Notes: generated by a model not told the origin, from the letters alone. A stretch of 64,000 nt of DNA from an uncultured Gemmatimonadaceae bacterium (GCA_963817955.1 CAWFQK010000002.1:832001-896000), one strand, 5' to 3'. Shown: positions 32,859 through 57,535, numbered from the stretch's first letter. A program made the numbers and translations.

Positions 32859-34241
32859 ATGCCGAGCGTTCTGATCATCGACGACGAGCCGAACATCCGG
32901 CGTATGGTAGGCGCGCTGCTGAGCGCTGAAGGTTACGAGGTGCGGGACGCACAGGACGGTGCCTCCGGGCTGGCGCGTGCCATGGAAGCCGAGCCCGACG
33001 TGTTGTTGCTCGATCTGATGATGCCCGGTGGGCTCGATGGAATGGCGACGCTGGCGCGGATGCGCGAATCGCACCCCGACGTGCCCGTGGTGATGATGAG
33101 CGGACGCGCGGGACTGAGCGACGCCGTGAAGGCGACCAAGCTCGGCGCGTTCAATTTTCTCGAAAAGCCGTTGAGTCCCGAGGGCGTGCTGCTCGCCTTG
33201 TCGTCGGCGATGGAGCTGCGCCTGGCGCGCCGCGAAGCGAAAGCGCTGCGCGCCGATCTCGGATTGAGCGGCGAGATGATCGGCGATAGTCCGGCGCTGA
33301 TGCAAGTGCGCGCAATGATCGACCGCGTGGCGCCCACGGACGCGCGGGTCCTGATCACGGGCGAGTCGGGAACGGGTAAGGAGTTGGTGGCCGCGGCGAT
33401 CCACGCCGGCAGTCCGCGGCGCGACCGGCCGTTCGTTCGCGTGAACTGCGCGGCGATCCCGCGCGATCTCGTGGAGAGTGAGATGTTCGGGCATGAGCGC
33501 GGCGCATTCACCGGGGCGACCGATCGCCGCATCGGACGGTTCGAGCTGGCGAACCGCGGCACGCTGCTGCTCGACGAAGTGGGCGACCTCGGCGCGGAAG
33601 CCCAGGCCAAGCTGTTGCGGGCGATCGAGGCGAAGGAAATCGAACGCGTGGGCGGTGGCAAGCCAATCCGCGTCGACGTGCGCATCATCTCGGCGACGAA
33701 CAAGGACCTGTCGCGCGCGGTGCTCGACGGCAGCTTTCGCGACGATCTGCTCTTCCGTCTCAATGTCATTCCAATTCCCCTGCCGCCGCTACGCGAGCGT
33801 CCCGGGGACATTCCAGCCCTCGTGCGCCATTTTTCGGTGCTGCACAGGATGCGCACCGGCCAACCGCTGCCGGCGTGGAGTGATGAGGCGATCAACGCCC
33901 TCACGCGCTACGGTTGGCCGGGAAATGTCCGGGAGTTGGCGAACATCGTGGAACGCCTGGCAATCCTGTACCCAGGGCGCGTCGTGACGGACGAGGATGT
34001 AGCCGCCGTCTTGCCGATCGGCAACGCTGCGCGGCCGAGTACGGTCGTGTCCCTTCCGAATCCCGAGTTGCTCGATCATTCGCTCAGTGACACACTCGAC
34101 GAGTACGAGCGTGTGCTCATATCGCGCGCGCTGTCGACGACGAGCGGCAACGTGGCTGAAGCGGCGCGTCGGCTGAAGACCGATCGACCTAACCTCTATC
34201 GCCGCATGCGGCGGCTGGGCATTCCAGTCGGCAATGACTGA
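32859..34241 (+). CDS. Sigma54-dependent response regulator (NtrC/NtrX family)
   Basis: REC domain, GESGTGKE, GAFTGA, WPGNVREL, Fis HTH. Confidence 0.95.
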   Translation: MPSVLIIDDEPNIRRMVGALLSAEGYEVRDAQDGASGLARAMEAEPDVLLLDLMMPGGLDGMATLARMRESHPDVPVVMMSGRAGLSDAVKATKLGAFNFLEKPLSPEGVLLALSSAMELRLARREAKALRADLGLSGEMIGDSPALMQVRAMIDRVAPTDARVLITGESGTGKELVAAAIHAGSPRRDRPFVRVNCAAIPRDLVESEMFGHERGAFTGATDRRIGRFELANRGTLLLDEVGDLGAEAQAKLLRAIEAKEIERVGGGKPIRVDVRIISATNKDLSRAVLDGSFRDDLLFRLNVIPIPLPPLRERPGDIPALVRHFSVLHRMRTGQPLPAWSDEAINALTRYGWPGNVRELANIVERLAILYPGRVVTDEDVAAVLPIGNAARPSTVVSLPNPELLDHSLSDTLDEYERVLISRALSTTSGNVAEAARRLKTDRPNLYRRMRRLGIPVGND

Positions 34242-35985: not shown

Positions 35986-36612
35986 ATGCGATTCGTCTGG
36001 ACGCTCGCGGCACTATTGTGGGCAGCGCCACTCCTGGCGCAGCGCGACCGCGTGCAGCTGGACATCTCGGTCGACCCAGCCGCGGCGCTGCAGGAAGGAC
36101 CGATCATTGTGACGAGCAATCTGCTCGCCGACAGCAAGACACGGGAGCTCCTGCGCACCTTTCCCGCGCGGATTCACTATCGGGTGGAATTGTGGCGGAA
36201 GGGCGGGTGGTTCGACGAACCAAGCGGTCGCACCGAATGGGATGTGCTCGTCCAATACGATCCGACACTGCAGATCTACAACGTGATCCGGACACTGGGC
36301 GATCAGATGCTCGAGAATTTCGGCGGCTTCGCCACGCTGACCGCGGCGGAGGCGCAGTTCAGCCGCCCCTTCCGAGCGCCGCTGCACCCGAGCCGGTCGG
36401 GGCGGTATTACTACAACCTGATTGTCGACGTCCAAACATTGTCGGAGAGCGACCTCGGCGCGTTACAGGAATGGCTGCGCGGCCCTTCGGCCCCTGGAAA
36501 GAGCAACCCGCTCACCGCGCTTCGCAGCGGGCTCGGCACGTTGCTCACGCGAGTCCTGGGCGGAGACAAGCGGCATTACGAGACGCGCTCGGAGGTGTTC
36601 CGGATTCAGTGA
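35986..36612 (+). CDS. Secreted hypothetical protein (DUF4390-like)
   Basis: Signal peptide; operonic position; ELWRKGGWFD. Confidence 0.65.
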   Translation: MRFVWTLAALLWAAPLLAQRDRVQLDISVDPAAALQEGPIIVTSNLLADSKTRELLRTFPARIHYRVELWRKGGWFDEPSGRTEWDVLVQYDPTLQIYNVIRTLGDQMLENFGGFATLTAAEAQFSRPFRAPLHPSRSGRYYYNLIVDVQTLSESDLGALQEWLRGPSAPGKSNPLTALRSGLGTLLTRVLGGDKRHYETRSEVFRIQ

Positions 36613-36654
36613 GTGCGCGTGCCAGGCCTGATGCCGGCCGCGCACGTCAAAACA

Positions 36655-37239
36655 CTAGCGAGCTGTGCGGACGTTCCGATCTTCGAGCTGCTCGAGATGG
36701 TGCAGCACGTCGCTGCCGTAAAACGTCCGGATATAGCGCGCCTGCGTTGGCGTGAGACGGCGAACCGCCCAGCTCAAGTGTACGAAATGCGGCTCGACCG
36801 GATGCGTGAGTGGATGCATGCCGATCTCATCGGGCAACCGATTTCCCTTACGCGTGTTGCACGGGCTGCACGCCGCAACGACGTTCGTCCACTCGTTGCT
36901 TCCGCCACGCGACAGCGGGATGAGGTGATCGCGCGTGAGCGCCTCTCGCGGCTTGAACTCGGTCATGTGCCGACCACAGTACTGACAGCGGTACTGATCG
37001 CGCGCGAACAGGAACGTGTTCGTCACCTGGCGCCGGAAACGCCGGGGGACGTGAATGAACTTGGTGAGACGAATCACTGCCGGACGCGGCATAGTGAGAC
37101 GCTCCGAGCGCACGACCCGGTCTTGATCCGCCTCGACGATCTCGGCTTTGCCATCGATCACGAGGCGAAGGGCCCGGCGCATGGGGACCATCGTCAGCGG
37201 TTCGTAAGACGCGTTCAGTGCCAGGCAACCGAGGACCAC
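36655..37239 (-). CDS. HNH endonuclease
   Basis: GGAGG RBS; LNASYEPL, RDQYRCQYCG, DHLIPLSRGG, CSPCNTRKG. Confidence 0.92.
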   Translation of the reverse strand: MVLGCLALNASYEPLTMVPMRRALRLVIDGKAEIVEADQDRVVRSERLTMPRPAVIRLTKFIHVPRRFRRQVTNTFLFARDQYRCQYCGRHMTEFKPREALTRDHLIPLSRGGSNEWTNVVAACSPCNTRKGNRLPDEIGMHPLTHPVEPHFVHLSWAVRRLTPTQARYIRTFYGSDVLHHLEQLEDRNVRTAR

Positions 37240-37422
37240 GCACACCTCCGAGGGCCGGTACACAAACTCCCGCCAGAAACGTCAGGCGCGAGCAGGAACG
37301 GGCAGAGTGCGCCACGTCCCACGGCGTGCCGAAGCACGCGTCGGAAGGTTCTACACATCAAAGCTATTCCGGTGTCACGTAGGCGACAAGTTACTGTCCC
37401 CATCGAGCGCATTGCGACTGAC

Positions 37423-38179
37423 TCAAGTACTCGTCCGCGAACCGTGGCGCCGCGGATCGTAGAGCTCCTCGTCGGCCACGCCAATCGTCCGCGCCAGGGT
37501 GAGCGGGTGCGTGATGCGTGCCACCTGCTCCAGCGTGTGCCCATCCGAGCCCAGCGAGATTCGCAAGCCGCGATCGACAGCGCGACGAACGATGCGCTCG
37601 TGCGGCGGATAGCGCGAAGAGATCTCGAACGCAATTCCGGCAGCGAACAACGCGTCGATCATGCGCGCCTCGTGCTCCTCCGTCCACAACTCGTCGATCG
37701 GGCAGGCCGCGGAATGGCAGCGTGACGAGCGTGGGATGCGCCAGAATGTCCACTGGCATCTCGCGAGCAAACTGCTCGAGTGTCTCGAGGTGTGCGCGCA
37801 TGTAACGCTCCACCGTGAGTCCGCCGGGGAGATGATGTGAGAAAGCATGGACCAGCCTGTCGTCGGGCAACCGGACCGCATGGAGCGATCCGACCCGGTG
37901 CGTGAAGCGGCGCACGAGATCGTCAGGGAGCTCGCGCCAGAGTGGGTCGTGCCAGCAGAACTCGCCTCCACGCAGCACCTCGTGTCGCTCCAGCTCGTCG
38001 AGGTACGTGATGACGTCCTCAACGCTGGTGATGCTGCGAGCGACGTCGCGCGAGATGTGGTCGGCGACAGACGGGACCACACCCAATGCGGCTCCGCGCT
38101 CGACCACCTGTGCCACGGTGATCGCGCCGTCGGAAAATGTCGTATGCGCGTGGCAGTCGACGGGCTGCCAGGTGGTCAT
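37423..38179 (-). pseudogene. PHP-domain protein with a single +1 frameshift near 37701
   Basis: DCHAHTTFSDG...ILAHPT in one frame; IDELWTEE...FEISSRY...LGSDGH in the next frame. Confidence 0.8.
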
Positions 38180-38401
38180 TTCTATGTGCTCGGCTAACGG
38201 GTGCGAGGGGATGACCGTGCGCGTGCGACGGCGCGTGCGACGTGCAAACTATGATACCGGCCGTGCGTTGGCGATGGGAATGCGTCGGAGAGACGGAACG
38301 CGGGACGCGGGACAACGCGTTTTCGGCCAACGACCAAAGTCGAAAGACCAGCAGCCGTGGGCGATCGACCGGCCGTTGGCTGATGGCTGATGGCCTCCTG
38401 G

Positions 38402-38550
38402 TGATTCTTTCACTGCCTCCGCTGCTGCGGCGATCTGCATGATCAAATTGGTCGGCGGGCCGCCGTCGATCAGCACAGCCTCGTGCCACCGGACGCTTCG
38501 GCGGAGCGTCTCCAATGTCTTGCCTTCACGGTATTTCGTATGGCCTCCAC
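38402..38550 (-). pseudogene. Remnant of an uncharacterised helical protein family
   Basis: GGAGG RBS then ACG (possible mutated ATG) KYREGKTLETLRRS..., similar to MKYHEGSMRQALRRI at 56805. Confidence 0.45.
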
Positions 38551-38641
38551 CTGGCGACGGGGACGCTGAATAAGAACTACACCCCGGCGAGCGCCGCACG
38601 CGCCGGAGTGAAGAGCGAGCAACAGGCGTGCGACGTGTCGC

Positions 38642-39796
38642 GATTGCCGTCGGAAGCGACCGAATGGTCGTCGGAAGCGACCGAATGGTCGTCGGAAGCG
38701 ACCGAATGGTCGTCGGGAGTGACCGAATGGTCGTCGGAACCGACGGAGTCGTCTTCGGAAGAGTTGGAGTCGCGTTCAGACCAGTCGGTGTCTGCGTGAG
38801 AAGCGGTGGTCTTGCCTGTCACGCGAGGAGTCCGTCCTCGACACGACGGCCTGCGAGCTTCACGATCGGGCGTGGCGCCTGCACAAGAGACGATTCCATC
38901 GGCTACGTCAGCCATCCCTGCTGTTACGTCAGCCATTCCTGCTGAACGCGAGCGACTGGGTCGTGCACGCCGATCCATTGGCTGTGGACGCGGACCCATT
39001 CCACGTTGACACGAGTCTATTCCACGTCGACACAGGTGACTCCCTCGTGGCATTGCGACAGAGAGGCCTCAACGCCGGAGAGTCTGAGGTTGACGGCGAC
39101 GACTCCTCGCGTGACTCCCGTTGATCCCTCCGGTACGGCGTGCAGTTGGTGGTGAGCACGCGGGCATCCGAGCTGAACGAGCCGCGAAGCCTCCTGCACG
39201 GCCGCGAGTCCGATGGTGACTGCGAGGGGTTCGTGCTTGCACACAAGAGATTCGTGCTTGCGCGCGAGACGTTCGTGTTTGACCGCGCGCCGTGCCATCT
39301 CACCACGGGCGAGTCACCCCTCGACGCGCGTGGGTTCCACCTCAACCGGAAGGACTCCGCCCTGACCGAGACGCACTCTCAGGTGGACGTCATGGCATCC
39401 CAGCGAACGAAGCGGACATTGCCGGTGGACGCGCGGGAGAGGCTGGTGAACGCGCGGGAGAGGCGTGTTGACGAGAAACGGTCAGGTGTGGCGCGAGCGG
39501 CATTCGGGCTCGACACCGGGGTGTTCCATCTTGACCGGAGTGACTCCGCCCTGAACAGCGGCTAGTGCGAGCTGGATGCGCGGGAGTCCCTGCTCGATCG
39601 GCGCTCATTCGGTCTCGACCGCGAGGACTTCCACCTGCACACGCGTCAATTCGGTCTCGACCGCGAGGGATTCCACCTGCACACGCATCAATTCGGTCTC
39701 GACCGCGAGAGATTCCCTATGAGCGGGCGGGGATCCCACCTGAACACGCGGGCATCCCCTCTGCACGCCGACCGATCCCTTCTCGGCACAGAGATC
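38642..39796. repeat. Degenerate 21-bp periodic array, ~55 units in unbroken register
   Basis: e.g. GTCGGAAGCGACCGAATGGTC x3; alternating TTCGGTCTCGACCGCGAGGRM / TTCCACCTGCACACGCRTCAA. Confidence 0.85.
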
Positions 39797-39841
39797 CTTC
39801 GCTCCGCTCAGGATGACAAAGTACTGCAGTTCTCTGCGTTT
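39791..39841. repeat. REP-like palindrome plus a single GCAGTTCTCTGCGTT arm fragment
   Basis: GAGATCCTTCGCTCCGCTCAGGATGACAAA followed by CTGCAGTTCTCTGCGTTT. Confidence 0.75.
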
Positions 39842-39894
39842 CAAAAAACGCCGCGCCATCGTCCCCCAAAATCACACGCAACCCCCCGAAGCCC

Positions 39895-42297
39895 CTAAAT
39901 CGTATCTGGCCGAACTTTGGGCGGCCGGGTGCGCGATGTGTCCGGCCGCCGGGTGCGCGATGTGTCCGGAGGCCGCAGCGTGTCTCGCGGCCGCGAGATG
40001 CGCATGGTGACGGAGTCACGCGGAGGCAGCACGAAGATCGAACTGTCGTTGAATCGGCGTGCGGAGTCGGCTTGTTGCCGCCGCGTCGGCCGGATAGGGG
40101 ACGGCAGGCCGGGGACAACGACGTTCGCGCCTGTTCCACCCGTGGTGTCGTACCGTTGAACTGGCGGCGGGTAGACACCCGATGTATCAGCGGGATACAG
40201 CGTCGCTCCGGTGTGGACGTTACACGGCTGAATGGGTTCCGTACCCGGTAGGTAGAACTCGTTGGCGACCACGTTGCGCGGGCAATACGGCGTCGCCAAC
40301 ATGTTGGTCGTGACGTCGATCTGGCGCACCACGATGTCGCCAGGCATGGGCCAATCGGCAGGCGCGGGCTTCCGCGTGTAGACCTCGTTCATGAACGCGG
40401 TCCACGCCGGCGCGGCGAGAATACCGCCTTGCGCATTCGATTTGATTTTTTGCGGCTTGTCGAAGCCCATCCACACGCCGGCGACGAGATCCGGCGTGTA
40501 GCCAATGAACCAGACGTCCGTCCCATCGTTCGTCGTTCCAGTCTTTCCGCCCGCCGGATAGTGGAACTGCGAGCCGACGCTTCCCGCCGCAGTGCCCCGT
40601 TGCACGACATCCTTCATCACGCTCACCATGAGCCAGGCTTCCTCGGGCGACAGGACGGGCGCGGTGGTCGGCTGCGGCTCCCAGAGGATGTTGCCCTTCT
40701 GATCCTCGACGCGTGTGATGGCCATCGGCTCGGCGCGGGTGCCGAGGGACGCGAAGGCCGTGTAGGCCGCCACCAGTTCCACGGGATAGACATCCGCCGC
40801 ACCGATGAAGATCGAGGGATAACCGGGAATTGGCGTGGTGAGGCCGAACGCCCGGGCCTCGTCGATCACGCTCTGCGTGCCGAGCTCGAGGCCCAATCGG
40901 ATAGTCGGCACGTTGCGCGACTGATAGAGCGCGCGCCGCATGGGGATCTTGCCAACGAAATCACCTTCGAAGTTCTGCGGGGTCCAGGTGGCGTTTCCCG
41001 CCAACTGCACGGTGAGCGGCGAATCGTCGAGCAGGTACGACAGCGGACGTCCGTTGTGAATGGCATCGGCGTAGACAATTGGCTTGAACGTCGATCCCGG
41101 CTGTCGCACCGCCTGCACGGCACGGTCGAACTTGCTGTCGTTGAAGTCACGGCCGCCGACAAGCGCGCGCACGGCACCGGTGCGCGGGTCCATGGCGATG
41201 AATGCGTCCTGGAGGTATGGAGAGTTTGGCGAATCGTTCGGCTCGGTGTCGCTCGTGCGCGCCATGTACCGCTCGTACGACATGTGCGGATACGCGCCGT
41301 AGCGGCCCGCCTCGATGGCGCGAGCTTGCCGCTCGAGACTCCGCTCGGCCGCACCTTGCAGGTCGAGGTCGAGCGTCGTGTAGACCTTCAGGCCCTGCAG
41401 GTAGAGCTGCTTGCCGAACTTTTCATCGAGTTGCTGGCGAATCCACTCCACGAAATACGGCGCCGTCTGCCCCGCGTCCACGCGCGTCGCAAGCCTGAGC
41501 GGATAGGCCTGTGCTTCCCGCGCGTCGGTGGCGCTGACGATACCGGCATCGCGCATGAGGCCGATGACGACATTCCGCCGCTGTATGGCGCGGTCGGGAA
41601 AGAGACGCGGATTGTACCGCTCGGGACCTTTCGGCAACGCGGCGAGGGTCGCCGCTTCCGCCACGTTCAGCTGCTTGAGTGATTTGCCAAAGTACCGCTG
41701 CGCCGCGGTCTCGACGCCATACGCGCCGTTGCCGAGATAGATCTGATTGAGATACAACTCGAGAATCTTGTCCTTGGAGTACTCCTGCTCGATCGCGCGC
41801 GCGACCTTCGCCTCCTTGAGCTTGCGAATGAGCGTTTTGTCGCGGGACAGGCGTTCGGGGAAGATGTTTCGTGCAAGCTGCATGGTGATCGTCGAGAACC
41901 CTTCACTGAAATTCCGGTTCTTGAGATCGGTGAGCGCTGCCCGCGGCACGCTCCGCCAGTCGACCCCGGAATGCTGGTAGAAGCGCTTGTCTTCGGTGAC
42001 GATGAAGGCGTTCCGAACGAGCGGAGGAATGTCGGCAATCTTGGCGAGCGTGCGCCGCTCGAGGCCGATTTCGGCGACGAATCGTCCGTCCGCAGCGTAG
42101 AGCTTGGACGTCTGGCGCGGCTCGTAATCCTTGAGTGCGTCTACCGCAGGACACCGGCCGGCGCGGCAGACCATGGCCCAGCTCGCGTACCCGAACCCGG
42201 CGGAGAACGCCCCGATGAAACACAACAGGAGCAGCAGTCCGCGCGACGCCCGTGGGTGTCGCTGCGTGAACTGCTTGGTAAACGGAATCGTGGGCAT
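39895..42297 (-). CDS. Penicillin-binding protein 1A (class A PBP)
   Basis: EDKRFYQH, GFSTITMQL, RKLKE, SxxK (GSTFKP), SRN, KTG. Confidence 0.95.
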   Translation of the reverse strand: MPTIPFTKQFTQRHPRASRGLLLLLCFIGAFSAGFGYASWAMVCRAGRCPAVDALKDYEPRQTSKLYAADGRFVAEIGLERRTLAKIADIPPLVRNAFIVTEDKRFYQHSGVDWRSVPRAALTDLKNRNFSEGFSTITMQLARNIFPERLSRDKTLIRKLKEAKVARAIEQEYSKDKILELYLNQIYLGNGAYGVETAAQRYFGKSLKQLNVAEAATLAALPKGPERYNPRLFPDRAIQRRNVVIGLMRDAGIVSATDAREAQAYPLRLATRVDAGQTAPYFVEWIRQQLDEKFGKQLYLQGLKVYTTLDLDLQGAAERSLERQARAIEAGRYGAYPHMSYERYMARTSDTEPNDSPNSPYLQDAFIAMDPRTGAVRALVGGRDFNDSKFDRAVQAVRQPGSTFKPIVYADAIHNGRPLSYLLDDSPLTVQLAGNATWTPQNFEGDFVGKIPMRRALYQSRNVPTIRLGLELGTQSVIDEARAFGLTTPIPGYPSIFIGAADVYPVELVAAYTAFASLGTRAEPMAITRVEDQKGNILWEPQPTTAPVLSPEEAWLMVSVMKDVVQRGTAAGSVGSQFHYPAGGKTGTTNDGTDVWFIGYTPDLVAGVWMGFDKPQKIKSNAQGGILAAPAWTAFMNEVYTRKPAPADWPMPGDIVVRQIDVTTNMLATPYCPRNVVANEFYLPGTEPIQPCNVHTGATLYPADTSGVYPPPVQRYDTTGGTGANVVVPGLPSPIRPTRRQQADSARRFNDSSIFVLPPRDSVTMRISRPRDTLRPPDTSRTRRPDTSRTRPPKVRPDTI

Positions 42298-42331
42298 ATG
42301 AGTTCATTCCCCTGTCGTCTAATTTTGTGCC

Positions 42332-43621
42332 ATGCGATCTCATGCACTGCTCGACGAGCTCCGGTGGCGTGGCCTGCTGCACCAGCACACTGACCAGGTC
42401 GCGGAAATTCTCAGCAGCGGCCCGGTGTCAGGATACATCGGATTCGATCCCACCGCTCCCAGCTTGCACATCGGGAGCCTGCTCGTCGTCATGCTGCTCG
42501 TCCGCCTGCAGCGGCACGGGCATCGGCCGGTCGCCCTCGTCGGCGGAGGCACGGGGCTCATTGGCGATCCAAGCGGCAAGGCGAGCGAGCGACCACTCGC
42601 CGATTCGGCGCAAGTCGCCGAGAATGCGGACAAGATCCGGAGACAGCTCGAGCGATTCCTGGATTTCACCGGTCCGAATGCCGCGCGCATGATCAACAAT
42701 GCAGACTGGCTGGTCGAGCTGCGCGCCGTGGAATTCATGCGGGACGTCGGCAAGCACTTCACGATCAACTACATGCTCCAGAAGGACTCGGTGCAGAGCC
42801 GGATGGACACCGGCATCTCGTTCACCGAGTTCTCCTACATGCTGCTGCAGGCCTACGATTTCCTGGAGTTGCGGCGCCGGCACGACGTGCGCCTGCAACT
42901 GGGCGGCAGCGATCAATGGGGTAATATCACGGCCGGTATCGAGCTCATTCGCCGCACGCTCGGCACCGACGCACACGCCATCACGTCGCCACTCGTGACG
43001 ACGTCGGCGGGAACGAAGTTCGGCAAGACAGAGGCAGGCGCCGTGTGGTTGGACGCGTCGCTCACGTCGCCGTACAAGTTCTATCAGTTCTGGGTCAACG
43101 TGGACGATCGCGACGTGGGGCGGTACCTGCGCTTCTTCACGCTGCTGGATCGACCGGCAATCGAATTGCTCGATCAACTGGTGGCCGATAAGCCGGAGCA
43201 GCGCGAGGCGCAGCAAACGCTGGCCCGCGAAGTGACGCGCATGGTGCATGGCGAGAAGGCGCTGGCCGCGGCGGAAGAAGTATCGTCGCTGCTCTTTGGC
43301 GGCGCCGACCCCAAGACGCTTTCTGCGGACGCACTCGTGGCACTCAAGCTCGAGATTCCGGTATTCAGTGTCGAGCCTGATGCGGAGCGGGTCGCCCTGA
43401 CCACGTACGACGTGCTGGAAGCGGTGTGCGTCGGCAACGATGCGCTGTTCAAGAGCAAGGGTGATTCGCGGCGCATGGTGCAGCAGGGTGGCGTGTACCT
43501 CAACGGCCAGCGCATGGAGGCGGAACGCAAGGCCATTCCCGCCGAGGAGTTGCTCGGCGGCAGGTACGTGCTCGTTCGGAAGGGCGCGCGCAGCTACGGC
43601 TTGGTGGAAGTAGGCGGGTAG
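42332..43621 (+). CDS. tyrS: Tyrosine--tRNA ligase
   Basis: GFDPTAPSLHIG, GGSDQWGNI, KFGKT, S4 domain. Confidence 0.97.
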   Translation: MRSHALLDELRWRGLLHQHTDQVAEILSSGPVSGYIGFDPTAPSLHIGSLLVVMLLVRLQRHGHRPVALVGGGTGLIGDPSGKASERPLADSAQVAENADKIRRQLERFLDFTGPNAARMINNADWLVELRAVEFMRDVGKHFTINYMLQKDSVQSRMDTGISFTEFSYMLLQAYDFLELRRRHDVRLQLGGSDQWGNITAGIELIRRTLGTDAHAITSPLVTTSAGTKFGKTEAGAVWLDASLTSPYKFYQFWVNVDDRDVGRYLRFFTLLDRPAIELLDQLVADKPEQREAQQTLAREVTRMVHGEKALAAAEEVSSLLFGGADPKTLSADALVALKLEIPVFSVEPDAERVALTTYDVLEAVCVGNDALFKSKGDSRRMVQQGGVYLNGQRMEAERKAIPAEELLGGRYVLVRKGARSYGLVEVGG

Positions 43622-56442: not shown

Positions 56443-56805
56443 TCACCGTAGCTTCCAGCTTCTCTGCCACACTCCGAAACCAGATTTCGACACGGTCGAA
56501 CGCGGTGTGGTGAGCGAGCTGAAATCGGGAACAGCCAGCAGTCGATGCTTCGCGATCGCCGCGATGGAATCCATATGGTGGATCCGCAGCGCAAGGCGCA
56601 GCGCGCGTAGTTTCGACGTCTCCTTTCTGCTGGCGCGGCCACCAACCTCCTGAGCGGTGGAGGATGCGCTGATTTGATCGATGGTGGCGGTGAGCTCCTG
56701 CCGAGCGAAAGAACGCATGAGCGGGGCGAACGCCGTGGGTTGGGCATCGAGAAACGCGTCGATGCGGCGGAGCGCTTGCCGCATACTGCCTTCGTGGTAT
56801 TTCAT
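56443..56805 (-). pseudogene. 5' part of an uncharacterised helical protein family gene
   Basis: MKYHEGSMRQALRRIDAFLD...LRLALRIHHMDSIAAIA; in frame with the hsdM fragment. Confidence 0.5.
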
Positions 56806-56808
56806 GTG

Positions 56809-57261
56809 GGGTCCGACGACTTCGACCATTGCCGCGATGAGCGCTCGCGGTGTGAAGTACTGTCCCGCGCCGCTCTTCACATCCTCGGCGTTCTTCTGGA
56901 GCAGGCCTTCGTAGGCGTCGCCCTTTACGTCGACGCCGAGGCTAGTCCATTGCTCCTTGCCAATGAGGTCGACGATGAGGCGGCGGAGCTTGGCCGGGTC
57001 CTGGATCTTGTTCTGTGCCTTCCGGAAGATGAGGCCCAGCAGGCCGGACTTCTTGCCGAGTTCTTCGAGAGTGCGTCGGTAGTGCACCTCGAGTTCGTCG
57101 CCTTCGACTTTCAGCAACGCGCTCCAGTCGAATCCCTTCGGGATGCGTGACGGTTTGTTGAAAGGTGGCCTGGACTGTTCATCCGCCATCTTGAGGAACA
57201 GCAGGAACGTCAACTGCTCGACGTAGTCGCCATAGGACAGGCCGTCGTCGCGGAGAATGTT
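56809..57261 (-). pseudogene. hsdM: Type I RM methyltransferase N-terminal fragment
   Basis: LRDDGLSYGDYVEQLTFLLFLKM...GDAYEGLL...GAGQYFTPR; stops before motif I. Confidence 0.88.
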
Positions 57262-57535
57262 ACGGATGTCGCGGATCCGCTCGAGCAGCTCATCGAAGTA
57301 GTCCGTCTGCCCTTTGCCGGGCGGATTCTTGAGCCGTTCGTCGTCCATGGTGAAGCCTTTCACCAGGAACTCGCTCAAGTGCGCGGTAGCCCACGGCGAG
57401 TATGGCTTGGAGGTTGTAGTGCTCCACCTCGCGGGTGACCTGCCGAGTGCCTTCCTGCCGAACTATCCGGAATTTCCGGATGGTTGGGCCCCGGGGCAAC
57501 TCGCCTTCGTCGAAGATGTTGACGAGGTGCTCGTC
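57262..57535 (-). pseudogene. rhuM: RhuM family fragment with internal deletion/frameshift
   Basis: NIFDEGEL..TIRKFRIVRQEG..YNLQAILAVGYR, then KGFTMDDERLK..YFDELLERIRDIR. Confidence 0.85.

What the first reader, a model, noticed from the sequence alone, without database searches (positions are those of the whole stretch)
38642..39796. 1.15-kb array of ~55 highly diverged 21-bp units with no indels and no spanning ORF
Seen: cutting every 21 nt from 39776 back to ~38642 keeps a loose consensus (T[TC]C-NNN-[CG]T[CG]-[AG]AC...; the leftmost units differ), with local exact or alternating duplications. No ORF in the track spans it. The minus strand reads as heptads in places (LMRVQVE SLAVETE). Inference: strict register despite heavy divergence and stops is unexpected for neutral decay. 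It suggests unit-wise addition or conversion, a two-helical-turn protein-binding lattice, or a heptad-cassette reservoir. A REP caps one end and a gene remnant lies at the other.
Basis: partly seen in the sequence, partly recalled or inferred. Interest (0 to 1): 0.72.

Follow-up and report, generated by a model that had tools for sequence, protein, structure and literature searches.

The report
Relic of a phased 21-bp array
This 1.15-kb stretch is a worn-out copy of a non-coding array of 21-base units that, in this bacterium and its relatives, regularly sits just upstream of one family of unknown genes, most likely as a regulatory landing strip for a DNA-binding protein.

Summary
Lag-21 self-identity is 0.50 against 0.21-0.30 at other lags. 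It holds outside the near-exact repeats: 0.44 in register against 0.26 out of register, z = 38.

The locus is not unique. Window 38494-39789 is collinear, at 72-87% identity, with 13 other places in the genome. Copies differ mainly by gaps that are multiples of 21 bp (16 of 23).

The array is the upstream part of a repeated module: a conserved AT-rich end segment, the 21-bp array, a short leader and a ~255-aa all-helical gene of no known family. Of 24 family-gene loci, 20 have such an array directly 5'. In 24 of 28 loci from 28 other species the strongest upstream period is 21, 42 or 63, although the unit sequences are unrelated.

Three tests show no coding signal (dN/dS, codon-position GC, stops), and no RNA fold signal was found.

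This copy is dead. The start codon is ATG->ACG, about 315 bp of the gene are deleted, and a REP replaces the distal segment.

Function is inferred only. I favour a phased protein-binding lattice upstream of the promoter, because sigma-54-type promoters lie between array and gene in the sister family.

The parts
38332..38539 (-). Remnant of the ~255-aa helical family gene. The start codon is ATG->ACG at 38539..38537. The first ~12 codons run to 38503. At the junction 38503|38502 about 315 bp are missing compared with the intact copy. Positions 38403-38502 match codons ~117-150. Positions 38332-38402 are shared only with other dead copies.
   Evidence: blastn; translations of intact copies; three-way alignment with the intact copy C2:716194-716949; tblastn hit C2:870393-870491
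38540..38641 (-). Proximal leader between array and gene. It holds a Shine-Dalgarno GGAGG (38548..38544) and a degenerate GC hairpin with a T-run (about 38607..38569). The hairpin corresponds to the conserved leader hairpin of live copies.
   Evidence: Read. A terminator-like hairpin lies at the same place in the intact copy. The leader motif shows covariation in live copies. The covariance model did not detect the motif here at E <= 1.
38642..38761 (.). Gene-proximal block of a distinct 21-bp unit: CGTCGGAAGCGACCGAATGGT, 5.4 copies, 89% matches. Copy number varies among paralogs by 21, 42 or 63 bp.
38762..38830 (.). About three transitional, diverged units in the same register.
38831..39796 (.). 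Main array of 46 units of 21 bp (+ strand T-Y-C-N3-S-T-S-R-A-C-N9). Younger sub-blocks lie at 38904-38944, 39222-39281, 39424-39464 and 39607-39716; the last has a 42-bp period, 2.6 copies, 94% matches. Homology to paralogs ends at 39789-39791.
39783..39830 (.). REP-like dispersed element that replaces the conserved AT-rich distal segment present in 21 other arrays.
   Evidence: 29 other genomic matches to 39782-39819. It is the only part matched in relatives. The distal-segment alignment shows this copy diverging here.

Best explanation
SHOWN. The region is a decayed copy of a repeated ~2.3-kb module. In gene sense the module consists of:
- a conserved ~130-165-bp AT-rich distal segment;
- a non-coding array of 21-bp units, 0.2-1.5 kb long;
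- a ~100-nt leader;
- a ~255-aa basic, all-helical gene of an uncharacterised family.

The array keeps its register because copies gain and lose whole units (gaps that are multiples of 21 bp), and because a few positions per unit are held (T1, T8, A11, C12 here). In this copy the gene is dead (ACG start, ~315-bp deletion) and a REP has replaced the distal segment. This particular array is therefore probably an inert relic that is 13-28% diverged from its sisters.

INFERRED. In live modules the array acts as DNA. It would be a lattice of binding sites spaced two helical turns apart, so that all sites face the same side of the helix. It lies immediately upstream of the gene's promoter. A regulator would load cooperatively and control the gene. 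In the sister family the candidate is a sigma-54 enhancer-binding activator; the basic helical product itself is another candidate.

The period is conserved and the unit sequence is not. That fits a geometric (phasing) constraint with a binder that co-evolves with each array.

The confidence given covers the whole statement. The shown part alone I would put near 0.9, the inferred function near 0.4.
For: Identity as a module copy:
- Window 38494-39789 is collinear with 13 other loci at 72-87% identity (alignment).
- The module boundaries are sharp and shared by two array subfamilies.
- The distal segment occurs at 21 places, each at the far end of a lag-21 tract, always in the same orientation wherever a family gene lies within 2.5 kb.

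Link to the gene:
- 20 of 24 family-gene loci have a lag-21 tract directly 5'.
- All 21 tracts of at least 900 bp are linked to the module.
- In 28 loci from 28 other species, the top lag among 5-63 in the 900 nt upstream is 21, 42 or 63 in 24.
- Tandem Repeats Finder reports period 21 or 42 upstream in congeners, with unrelated units.

Non-coding:
- dN/dS is 0.56-1.37 in six frames over 9 pairs. The adjacent gene gives 0.31-0.42.
- GC by codon phase spreads by 0.30 or less in 43 of 44 arrays, and no phase exceeds 0.82. The genes show GC3 of 0.79-0.94.
- There is at least one in-frame stop upstream of the start in 44 of 46 loci.
- Most homologues elsewhere start at profile position 1.
- Starts have a GGAG(G) motif close upstream in most of the 22 loci listed.

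Constraint: the logo is strongly position-specific.

DNA-level reading:
- In the sister family a sigma-54-type motif (GG-N10-GC, at least 9 of 12 matches) lies at -76..-125 in 18 of 27 loci, and at -208 in one more. Controls give 3 of 46 on the antisense strand, 0 of 45 far upstream, and 0.057 per 250 nt in the genome.
- The coarse array estimate ends upstream of that motif in 13 of those 19 loci.
- The genome has rpoN and 14 strong enhancer-binding-protein matches.
- No excess RNA folding on either strand: z = 0.02 and 0.63.

Known geometry: AraC-type operators are direct repeats with 21-bp periodicity (PMC3870299, passage read).
Against: - No binding was tested and no binder is identified.
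- In the window's own genus no sigma-54 motif scoring 9 or more was found in the 250 nt upstream of 19 loci. A scan of 1.5 kb upstream found a single sense-strand score-9 match, at -915 in L024. The enhancer idea is therefore not general.
- Conserved positions are not clustered into one helical turn. Only 5 of 30 arrays put significantly more information into an 11-bp window than permuted profiles do.
- The gene-sense strand upstream is mildly C-rich over G: mean skew +0.077, positive in 34 of 46 loci. A conserved leader pseudoknot shows that transcription starts more than 80 nt upstream of the ATG in this genus. Both leave room for an RNA role.
- Dead copies multiplied after the gene was inactivated: 5 of 9 aligned copies share the ACG start. 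Arrays can therefore spread without the gene.
- Plus-strand frame 0 has fewer stops than the composition model predicts: 0-4 in 8 copies against 2.7 expected. The copies are related, so this is not independent evidence.
Confidence: 0.5

Rival explanations
1. RNA-level element. The array is transcribed from a promoter in the conserved AT-rich distal segment, as a long repetitive 5' leader or separate non-coding RNA. That RNA would be a platform for an RNA-binding protein or for Rho. It ends at, or reads through, the hairpin/pseudoknot just before the gene.
For: - The conserved distal segment contains TATATATTAG and is kept at 84-100% identity over the longer matches between array subfamilies, while the arrays themselves diverge.
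- A hairpin with a T-run lies 40-65 nt before the start in the intact copy.
- The leader hairpin plus loop-to-tail pairing shows covariation: 93.3% of cells paired, 9 of 17 pairs with compensatory changes, 0 of 500 shuffles as good. Transcription must therefore begin upstream of it.
- C>G skew on the gene-sense strand in 34 of 46 loci, and in all 19 loci drawn from the window's genus.
Against: - Folding energy is no better than shuffles on either strand.
- No Rfam family matches.
- In the sister family the sigma-54-type promoter sits between array and gene in 13 of 19 loci, so there the array is outside the mRNA.
- The simple promoter scan found no sigma-70-type site in the distal segment on the gene-sense strand.
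- The skew is small: mean +0.077, against a background mean absolute skew of 0.052.
Confidence: 0.2
2. Functionless minisatellite. A short operator or any 21-bp duplication seeded slippage. The arrays then grow, shrink and are copied with the module as selfish or neutral DNA. The register is only a by-product of in-register unequal exchange.
For: - Gaps are multiples of 21 bp at many positions.
- Young blocks are scattered along the array.
- Dead and gene-less copies are common: 7 large arrays without a gene.
- 5 of 9 aligned copies share the inactivating ACG.
- Information is not clustered in most arrays: 25 of 30 are not significant.
Against: - The same period recurs upstream of the family gene in 24 of 28 species with unrelated unit sequences.
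- Lag 21 dominates the genome's tandem periodicities: 290 windows against 103 for the next lag.
- AT positions T1, T8 and A11 are held at 76-91% in a GC-rich background while other positions are randomised.
Confidence: 0.15
3. Decayed heptad-repeat protein gene on the plus strand, divergent from the family gene. The units would be 7-codon repeats (F/S-x-L/V-D/N-x-x-x) and this copy a simple pseudogene.
For: - 21 bp equals 7 codons.
- Plus-strand frame 0 has only 2 stops here and is open for 325-474 codons in 6 of 14 copies.
- Its commonest codons (TTC, CTS, GAC) are GC-ending.
- Observed stops in that frame (0-4 in 8 copies) are below the 2.7 expected.
Against: - dN/dS is about 1 in that frame: 0.71-1.25.
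- GC by phase is 0.76/0.49/0.71 in the intact module's array (L014), not the 0.73/0.48/0.87 typical of real genes here.
- The first codon varies at its middle base (F/S/C).
- The translation is rich in R, D, S, H and C, has no Pfam match and a low recognition score of 826, against 2004 for the family protein.
- Two subfamilies end in different frames within the same conserved DNA.
- No frame is consistently open across 46 loci.
Confidence: 0.07
4. Iteron-type replication or partition site of an integrated or mobile element: direct repeats, an AT-rich segment and an adjacent gene.
For: - Direct repeats of about two helical turns lie next to a conserved AT-rich segment and one gene.
- The module has sharp ends and is dispersed among unrelated housekeeping genes.
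Against: - There are more than 20 copies on the chromosome.
- Each has 10-70 units rather than a handful.
- The gene has no match to any Rep, Par or other Pfam, NCBIfam, PHROG or PADLOC family.
- I saw no terminal inverted repeats at the ends.
Confidence: 0.04

Closest known systems
AraC-family operators (direct repeats with 21-bp periodicity)
   Same: Non-palindromic direct repeats spaced two helical turns apart, upstream of the regulated promoter (PMC3870299; one passage read).
   Different: Those operators have two half-sites. Here there are 10-70 contiguous units. No AraC-type gene is linked, and no binder is known.
Sigma-54 upstream activating sequences (enhancers) bound by AAA+ activators (recalled from general knowledge)
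   Same: In the sister family the arrays lie tens to hundreds of bp upstream of a -24/-12 type promoter, which is where enhancers sit.
   Different: Known enhancers are 2-3 dyad-symmetric sites, not long direct-repeat arrays. No sigma-54 motif was found within 250 nt upstream in the window's own genus.
Plasmid iterons and centromere arrays such as sopC or parC (recalled)
   Same: Tandem direct repeats with helical phasing that are coated by a cognate protein encoded next door.
   Different: Those occur once per replicon with 3-12 units. The neighbouring gene here matches no Rep or Par family. There are more than 20 chromosomal copies.
Minisatellites or variable-number tandem repeats upstream of genes (recalled)
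   Same: Unit-wise gain and loss, with blocks of young units among old ones.
   Different: The period, but not the sequence, is conserved across an order-level group and tied to one gene family.
CRISPR arrays
   Same: A long regular array beside a conserved end segment.
   Different: There are no spacers: every 21-mer is a variant of one unit. No cas gene was seen among the neighbours I listed; I ran no dedicated cas search.

Membership tests
Heptad-repeat (coiled-coil) protein gene or its pseudogene | An open frame spans the repeats | tested here: not met
   This copy has stops in all six frames (2 in the best frame). Six of 14 copies have 325-474-codon open frames on the plus strand, but unit composition alone predicts only 2.7 stops per 46 units.
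Heptad-repeat (coiled-coil) protein gene or its pseudogene | Purifying selection at the amino-acid level between copies | tested here: not met
   Nei-Gojobori dN/dS is 0.56-1.37 in six frames over 9 pairs. The positive control, the adjacent family gene, gives 0.31-0.42.
Heptad-repeat (coiled-coil) protein gene or its pseudogene | Codon-position GC pattern of the genome's genes (GC3 about 0.8-0.9, GC2 about 0.5) | tested here: not met
   In 44 arrays no phase exceeds 0.82, and the spread is 0.30 or less in 43. The 27 family genes show GC3 of 0.79-0.94.
Sigma-54 enhancer (upstream activating sequence) | A -24/-12 promoter (GG-N10-GC within TGGCAC-N5-TTGCW) lies downstream of the repeats | tested here: inconclusive
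   Met in the sister family: 19 of 27 loci score at least 9 of 12. Not met in the window's genus, where no locus of 19 scores 9 or more within 250 nt upstream. This copy was not scanned by the script. The consensus used was recalled from memory.
Sigma-54 enhancer (upstream activating sequence) | Binding of an AAA+ activator to the repeats | not testable with these tools
   The genome has rpoN and 14 strong Sigma54_activat matches, none of them linked to the module.
Iteron-type origin or centromere | An adjacent initiator or partition protein of a known family | tested here: not met
   No Pfam, NCBIfam, PHROG or PADLOC family matches 22 members. The fold is a helical bundle with no convincing match.
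Iteron-type origin or centromere | One site per replicon, few repeats | tested here: not met
   35 linked tracts lie on the chromosome contigs. Arrays reach 1.6 kb.
CRISPR array | Identical repeats separated by unique spacers | tested here: not met
   Contiguous 21-mers all fit one degenerate consensus.
Known structured RNA (Rfam 15) | A match to a covariance model | tested here: not met
   No match at E <= 1 in window 36000-42500. Three intact modules gave only chance-level microRNA rows.
REP-type dispersed element (right-hand cap only) | A short, high-copy, near-identical sequence in intergenic DNA | tested here: met
   29 other copies at 92-100% identity in the genome. It is present in 15 of 40 relatives searched.

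The most novel reading that the evidence does not exclude
The arrays are a dedicated, co-evolving lattice. The neighbouring basic helical-bundle protein, or a sigma-54 activator, polymerises on them at two-turn spacing. Each paralog would recognise its own unit sequence. Array and gene would then form a self-contained regulatory or architectural cassette that multiplies through the genome. That would be a cis-element/protein pairing not described for any bacterium, found so far only in two related families of this phylum (probably Gemmatimonadota).
Probability: 0.2. Interest if true: 0.85.

Novelty: new variant of a known kind. Interest (0 to 1): 0.68.

Why it matters
About 1.1% of this genome (50.6 kb in 76 tracts) is 21-bp-periodic. 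Two thirds of that belongs to one module type.

A non-coding period that is conserved across many species while its sequence is free is rare in bacteria. It points to a geometric, helical-phase constraint on DNA-protein assembly.

The partner gene family is large and entirely uncharacterised: 5400 cluster representatives at E <= 0.001 in a 1.84-billion-protein library. The arrays, the sigma-54-type promoters and the leader pseudoknot give three concrete handles for finding out what the family does. They also allow a test of how long phased arrays regulate a promoter.

For annotation, the result warns that long open frames across such arrays are composition artefacts.

Tried and rejected
- **Sequencing runs:** no RNA holder was listed for window 38400-39900. 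Three DNA runs hold only 0.05-0.07 of the sampled words. I did not lay reads.
- **Fold of the family protein:** the AlphaFold model has pLDDT 87.6. Foldseek against PDB gave a best E of 0.24. VIA-align wide gave a best Z of 9.4, among generic long helical bundles and below the level the tool calls meaningful for helical proteins.
- **Sequence search of PDB:** nothing below E = 0.2.
- **Protein libraries:** Pfam, NCBIfam, PHROGs and PADLOC gave no family for 22 members.
- **Word-indexed homologue search:** only 6 proteins, all unnamed or 'hypothetical'.
- **One-turn core plus spacer architecture:** 5 of 30 arrays were significant, which is not convincing.
- **Shared unit motif across subfamilies:** TCGAC- and CGAGAC-like cores recur in several arrays but are not universal. 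An apparent match between this array and a congener's units differs by 2 nt in spacing, so I dropped it.
- **Conserved neighbours:** flanking genes differ at every live locus.
- **Terminal inverted repeats at module ends:** none seen.
- **Sigma-70-type promoter scan of an intact module:** one weak site, on the strand opposite the gene.
- **Earlier scan notes:** nothing on this genome, this protein or these words.
- **Literature:** four full-text searches found no paper on such arrays in this phylum. Only listings were seen, except one passage of PMC3870299.
- **The search for related loci:** it could not use the alignment, so I used the genome search instead.

Full report
**1.

Across 38642-39796 the only self-similarity peaks are at multiples of 21: 0.50, 0.48, 0.44, 0.43, 0.44 and 0.42 at lags 21 to 126. 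All other lags from 1 to 130 give 0.21-0.30. Stacking the sequence every 21 nt keeps one register throughout.

Tandem Repeats Finder sees only the young parts:
- 38648-38761, 5.4 copies;
- 38904-38944;
- 39222-39281;
- 39424-39464;
- 39607-39716, a 42-bp period.

Leaving the four blocks inside the main array out, the 29 remaining units still agree at 0.440 in register. Out of register they agree at 0.255-0.282. The maximum of 1000 shuffles is 0.288, so z = 38.

The logo of the 45 units of this copy is strongly position-specific on the plus strand: T1 0.91, T8 0.89, C12 0.80, A11 0.76, C3 0.73. There is almost no T at positions 13-21. No ORF spans the array.

**2. It is one of many copies.**

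A genome-wide scan found 76 tracts with lag-21 identity of at least 0.45. They total 50,631 of 4,533,955 bases. Lag 21 is by far the commonest tandem period in the genome: 290 windows, against 103 for lag 7 and 74 for lag 60. Lags 42 and 63 follow lag 21.

Window 38494-39789 is collinear with 13 other loci at 72-87% identity. Seven of these match over essentially the full length. In a 9-copy alignment, 16 of 23 distinct internal gaps are multiples of 21 bp. The remaining gaps are 1, 1, 33, 43, 43, 51 and 82 bp.

A DNA search of 40 relatives found only the REP at the right end, apart from one short stray hit in G004.

**3. What the array belongs to.**

Intact copies show a gene on the window's minus strand immediately left of the array. 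It begins MKYSEGSTLETLRR, is 252-257 aa long, and has GGAGG four bases before the ATG.

In the window only a remnant is left:
- the start codon is ACG;
- about 12 codons follow;
- about 315 bp are then missing at 38503|38502;
- about 100 bp matching codons ~117-150 follow.

The ACG is shared by 5 of the 9 aligned copies, so dead modules were themselves copied.

A tblastn search with seven paralogs found 24 family loci. Of these, 20 have a lag-21 tract directly 5' of the gene, 2 have one on the 3' side, and 2 have none.

The repeated unit has sharp ends. On the gene side it starts at the base of a perfect GC hairpin downstream of the gene. On the far side it ends after a ~130-165-bp AT-rich segment that two array subfamilies share. 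The longer matches are at 84-100% identity. That segment occurs 21 times, each time at the distal end of a lag-21 tract. In the window it has been replaced by a REP.

In all, 35 of 76 tracts are linked to the module. These hold 33.7 of 50.6 kb and include all 21 tracts of at least 900 bp.

**4. The gene family.**

It matches no Pfam, NCBIfam, PHROG or PADLOC family.

A profile of 22 members finds 5400 cluster representatives at E <= 0.001 in the 1.84-billion-protein library. Nearly all of the best 150 start at profile position 1 or 2. The protein therefore normally stands alone, without an N-terminal extension encoded by the array.

The model (pLDDT 87.6) is all-helical, with two ~55-residue helices and a disordered Pro/Thr-rich tail. 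Fold searches give only generic helical-bundle similarity. By my count from the sequence printed the protein is basic, with a net charge of about +8.

The nearest Atlas clusters are unnamed proteins, mostly from Gemmatimonadota. This is my only evidence for the phylum.

In a sample of 301 genomes of the phylum, 58 have the family at E <= 1e-10. Excluding the window's genome, the window's own family has it in 6 of 69 genomes, a sister family in 51 of 125, and ten further families in 0 of 106. That tally includes one unpublished genome, G089, from which nothing else was used. In the window's genus, 13 of 24 species have it.

**5. The period is conserved; the sequence is not.**

In 28 loci from 28 other species I ranked lags 5-63 by the best 168-bp window within the 900 nt upstream of the gene. 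The top lag was 21, 42 or 63 in 24 loci. The misses were L059, L064, L066 and L069. L061 was dropped because only 9 nt of upstream sequence were available.

Tandem Repeats Finder reports period-21 or period-42 repeats at about -100 to -550 in congeners, and the units differ from locus to locus. Stacks for eight further species, seven of them from other genera, show the same pattern.

**6. The arrays are not coding and not a folded RNA.**

Coding tests:
- Between paralogous arrays, dN/dS is 0.56-1.37 in every frame. The adjacent gene gives 0.31-0.42 by the same script.
- GC by codon phase is nearly flat in arrays: the spread is 0.30 or less in 43 of 44, and no phase exceeds 0.82. The family genes show about 0.73/0.48/0.87.
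- The frame continuous with the gene has at least one stop within 630 nt in 44 of 46 loci.

The plus-strand frame that starts at T1 is the most open. It has 2 stops here, and open frames of 325-474 codons occur in 6 of 14 copies. Units drawn from the position-specific base frequencies give only 2.7 stops per 46 units in that frame, with 7% of simulated arrays having none. The observed counts are 0-4 in eight copies. A ninth copy has 8 stops and carries a 1-bp gap in the alignment. This is somewhat fewer than expected, but the copies are related.

The translation of that frame looks like a wrong-frame product. It has no Pfam match and a low recognition score.

RNA folding of 39500-39796 is no better than shuffles on either strand. 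Rfam finds nothing.

**7. Clues to function.**

In the sister family a sigma-54-type motif, such as TGGCACACCGGTCGCA, lies at -76..-125 from the start codon.
- 11 of 27 loci score at least 10 of 12, and 19 of 27 score at least 9; one of the 19, L053, has its motif at -208.
- Controls at the 9-or-more level: 3 of 46 on the opposite strand, 0 of 45 far upstream, and 0.057 per 250 nt in the window's genome.
- In 13 of those 19 loci the coarse array estimate ends upstream of the motif. In the other 6 the two overlap.

The array therefore occupies the place of an enhancer. The window's genome has rpoN and 14 strong activator genes. However, the 19 loci from the window's genus show no such motif within 250 nt of the start. 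Over 1.5 kb upstream there is one sense-strand score-9 match, at -915 in L024.

In that genus the ~80 nt before the Shine-Dalgarno site instead hold a 10-bp hairpin. Its loop, (A)GGACGCG, can pair with GCGCGUCC 14-24 nt downstream. Seven sequences give 93.3% paired cells, compensatory changes in 9 of 17 pairs, and 0 of 500 shuffles as good; slid controls give 25-44%. A covariance model built from the seven sequences also finds the motif in three more modules of this genome and in one locus from another genus. It does not find it in the window's decayed copy.

The gene-sense strand upstream is slightly C-rich over G (34 of 46 loci, mean +0.077).

Conserved positions are not confined to one helical turn in most arrays (5 of 30 significant).

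**8. Reading.**

What is shown:
- this is a decayed copy of a multi-copy module;
- the array is non-coding;
- it changes by whole units;
- a few positions are held;
- the 21-bp period is tied to one gene family across many species.

What is inferred: the array works as DNA, as a row of sites two helical turns apart in front of the promoter, on which a regulator loads. Direct repeats with 21-bp periodicity are the known geometry of AraC-type operators (PMC3870299, passage read). Enhancers of sigma-54 promoters sit in this position (recalled).

I rate this reading at about one half. The rivals are an RNA-leader role (0.2), functionless minisatellite DNA carried with the module (0.15), a decayed heptad-repeat gene (0.07) and an iteron-like site (0.04). 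In this copy the gene is dead, so the array is probably no longer doing anything.

**9. Novelty.**

Four full-text searches found nothing on such arrays in this phylum. Earlier notes of this scan hold nothing either.

Phased repeat arrays are a known kind of element. The following features together are not described, as far as these searches reach:
- the scale (10-70 units, more than 20 copies per genome);
- conservation of the period without conservation of sequence;
- the tie to a large unknown gene family.

**Caveats.**
- The genome is an assembly of 9 contigs, 94% complete with 4.3% contamination.
- No expression data could be found.
- Array bounds are coarse.
- Related copies and related species are not independent samples.

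Noticed in passing
L033:2488-2554(-), L037:1709-1779(-), L038:1752-1817(-), L032:1755-1825(-), L028:1425-1491(+), L023:2187-2251(-), L019:2230-2297(-); weaker in L013, L014, L017 and L048; decayed remnant at window ~38561-38607(-): A conserved leader RNA motif lies just before the Shine-Dalgarno site of the family genes. It is a 10-bp hairpin whose loop, (A)GGACGCG, pairs with GCGCGUCC 14-24 nt downstream. This could be an H-type pseudoknot or a terminator/antiterminator pair. By eye, a U-run follows the hairpin in about half of the sequences. Covariation supports both helices. There is no Rfam match. It may be a new cis-regulatory RNA or riboswitch candidate.
   Followed up: partly
Loci L052-L075 (sister family), -76..-125 from the family-gene start: Sigma-54-type promoters (TGGCAC-N5-TCGCA) occur in 19 of 27 loci, between the 21-bp array and the gene (one of them, L053, at -208). 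None scoring 9 or more was found within 250 nt upstream in the window's own genus.
   Followed up: partly
window 56443-57378 (-): A chimeric 311-aa ORF. By my reading, untested, its N-terminal part looks like a type I restriction-modification methylase subunit. It is fused at '...VVGP|HMKYHEGS...' to a fragment of the helical family gene. No 21-bp array lies upstream.
   Followed up: partly
window 38294-38313; flanks of many modules (e.g. L015, L017, L039 right ends): Runs of a 7-bp unit (GGGACAC / CCCGTGT type) flank the modules on one or both sides. Lag 7 is the second commonest tandem period in the genome, with 103 windows.
   Followed up: no
G000 C1:53320, C1:191689, C2:412987, C5:176695, C3:118294, C7:126358, C5:41581 and others: 41 of 76 lag-21 tracts are not linked to the module by my criteria, and 10 of those are at least 500 bp long. 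Some have one frame with no stops and another with 17-25 (for example C2:412987). They may be real heptad-repeat genes or further module subfamilies.
   Followed up: no
window 39895-42297 (-) and 33276-33776 (+): An 800-aa ORF ends just right of the REP. By my reading, untested, it looks like a class A penicillin-binding protein. A sigma-54 activator domain match lies about 5 kb to the left of the array, at C2:865276-865776.
   Followed up: no
G000 C1:440964-442472 (L033): Two family genes lie in tandem. The second, more divergent one is directly downstream of the first, and only the first is preceded by an array.
   Followed up: no
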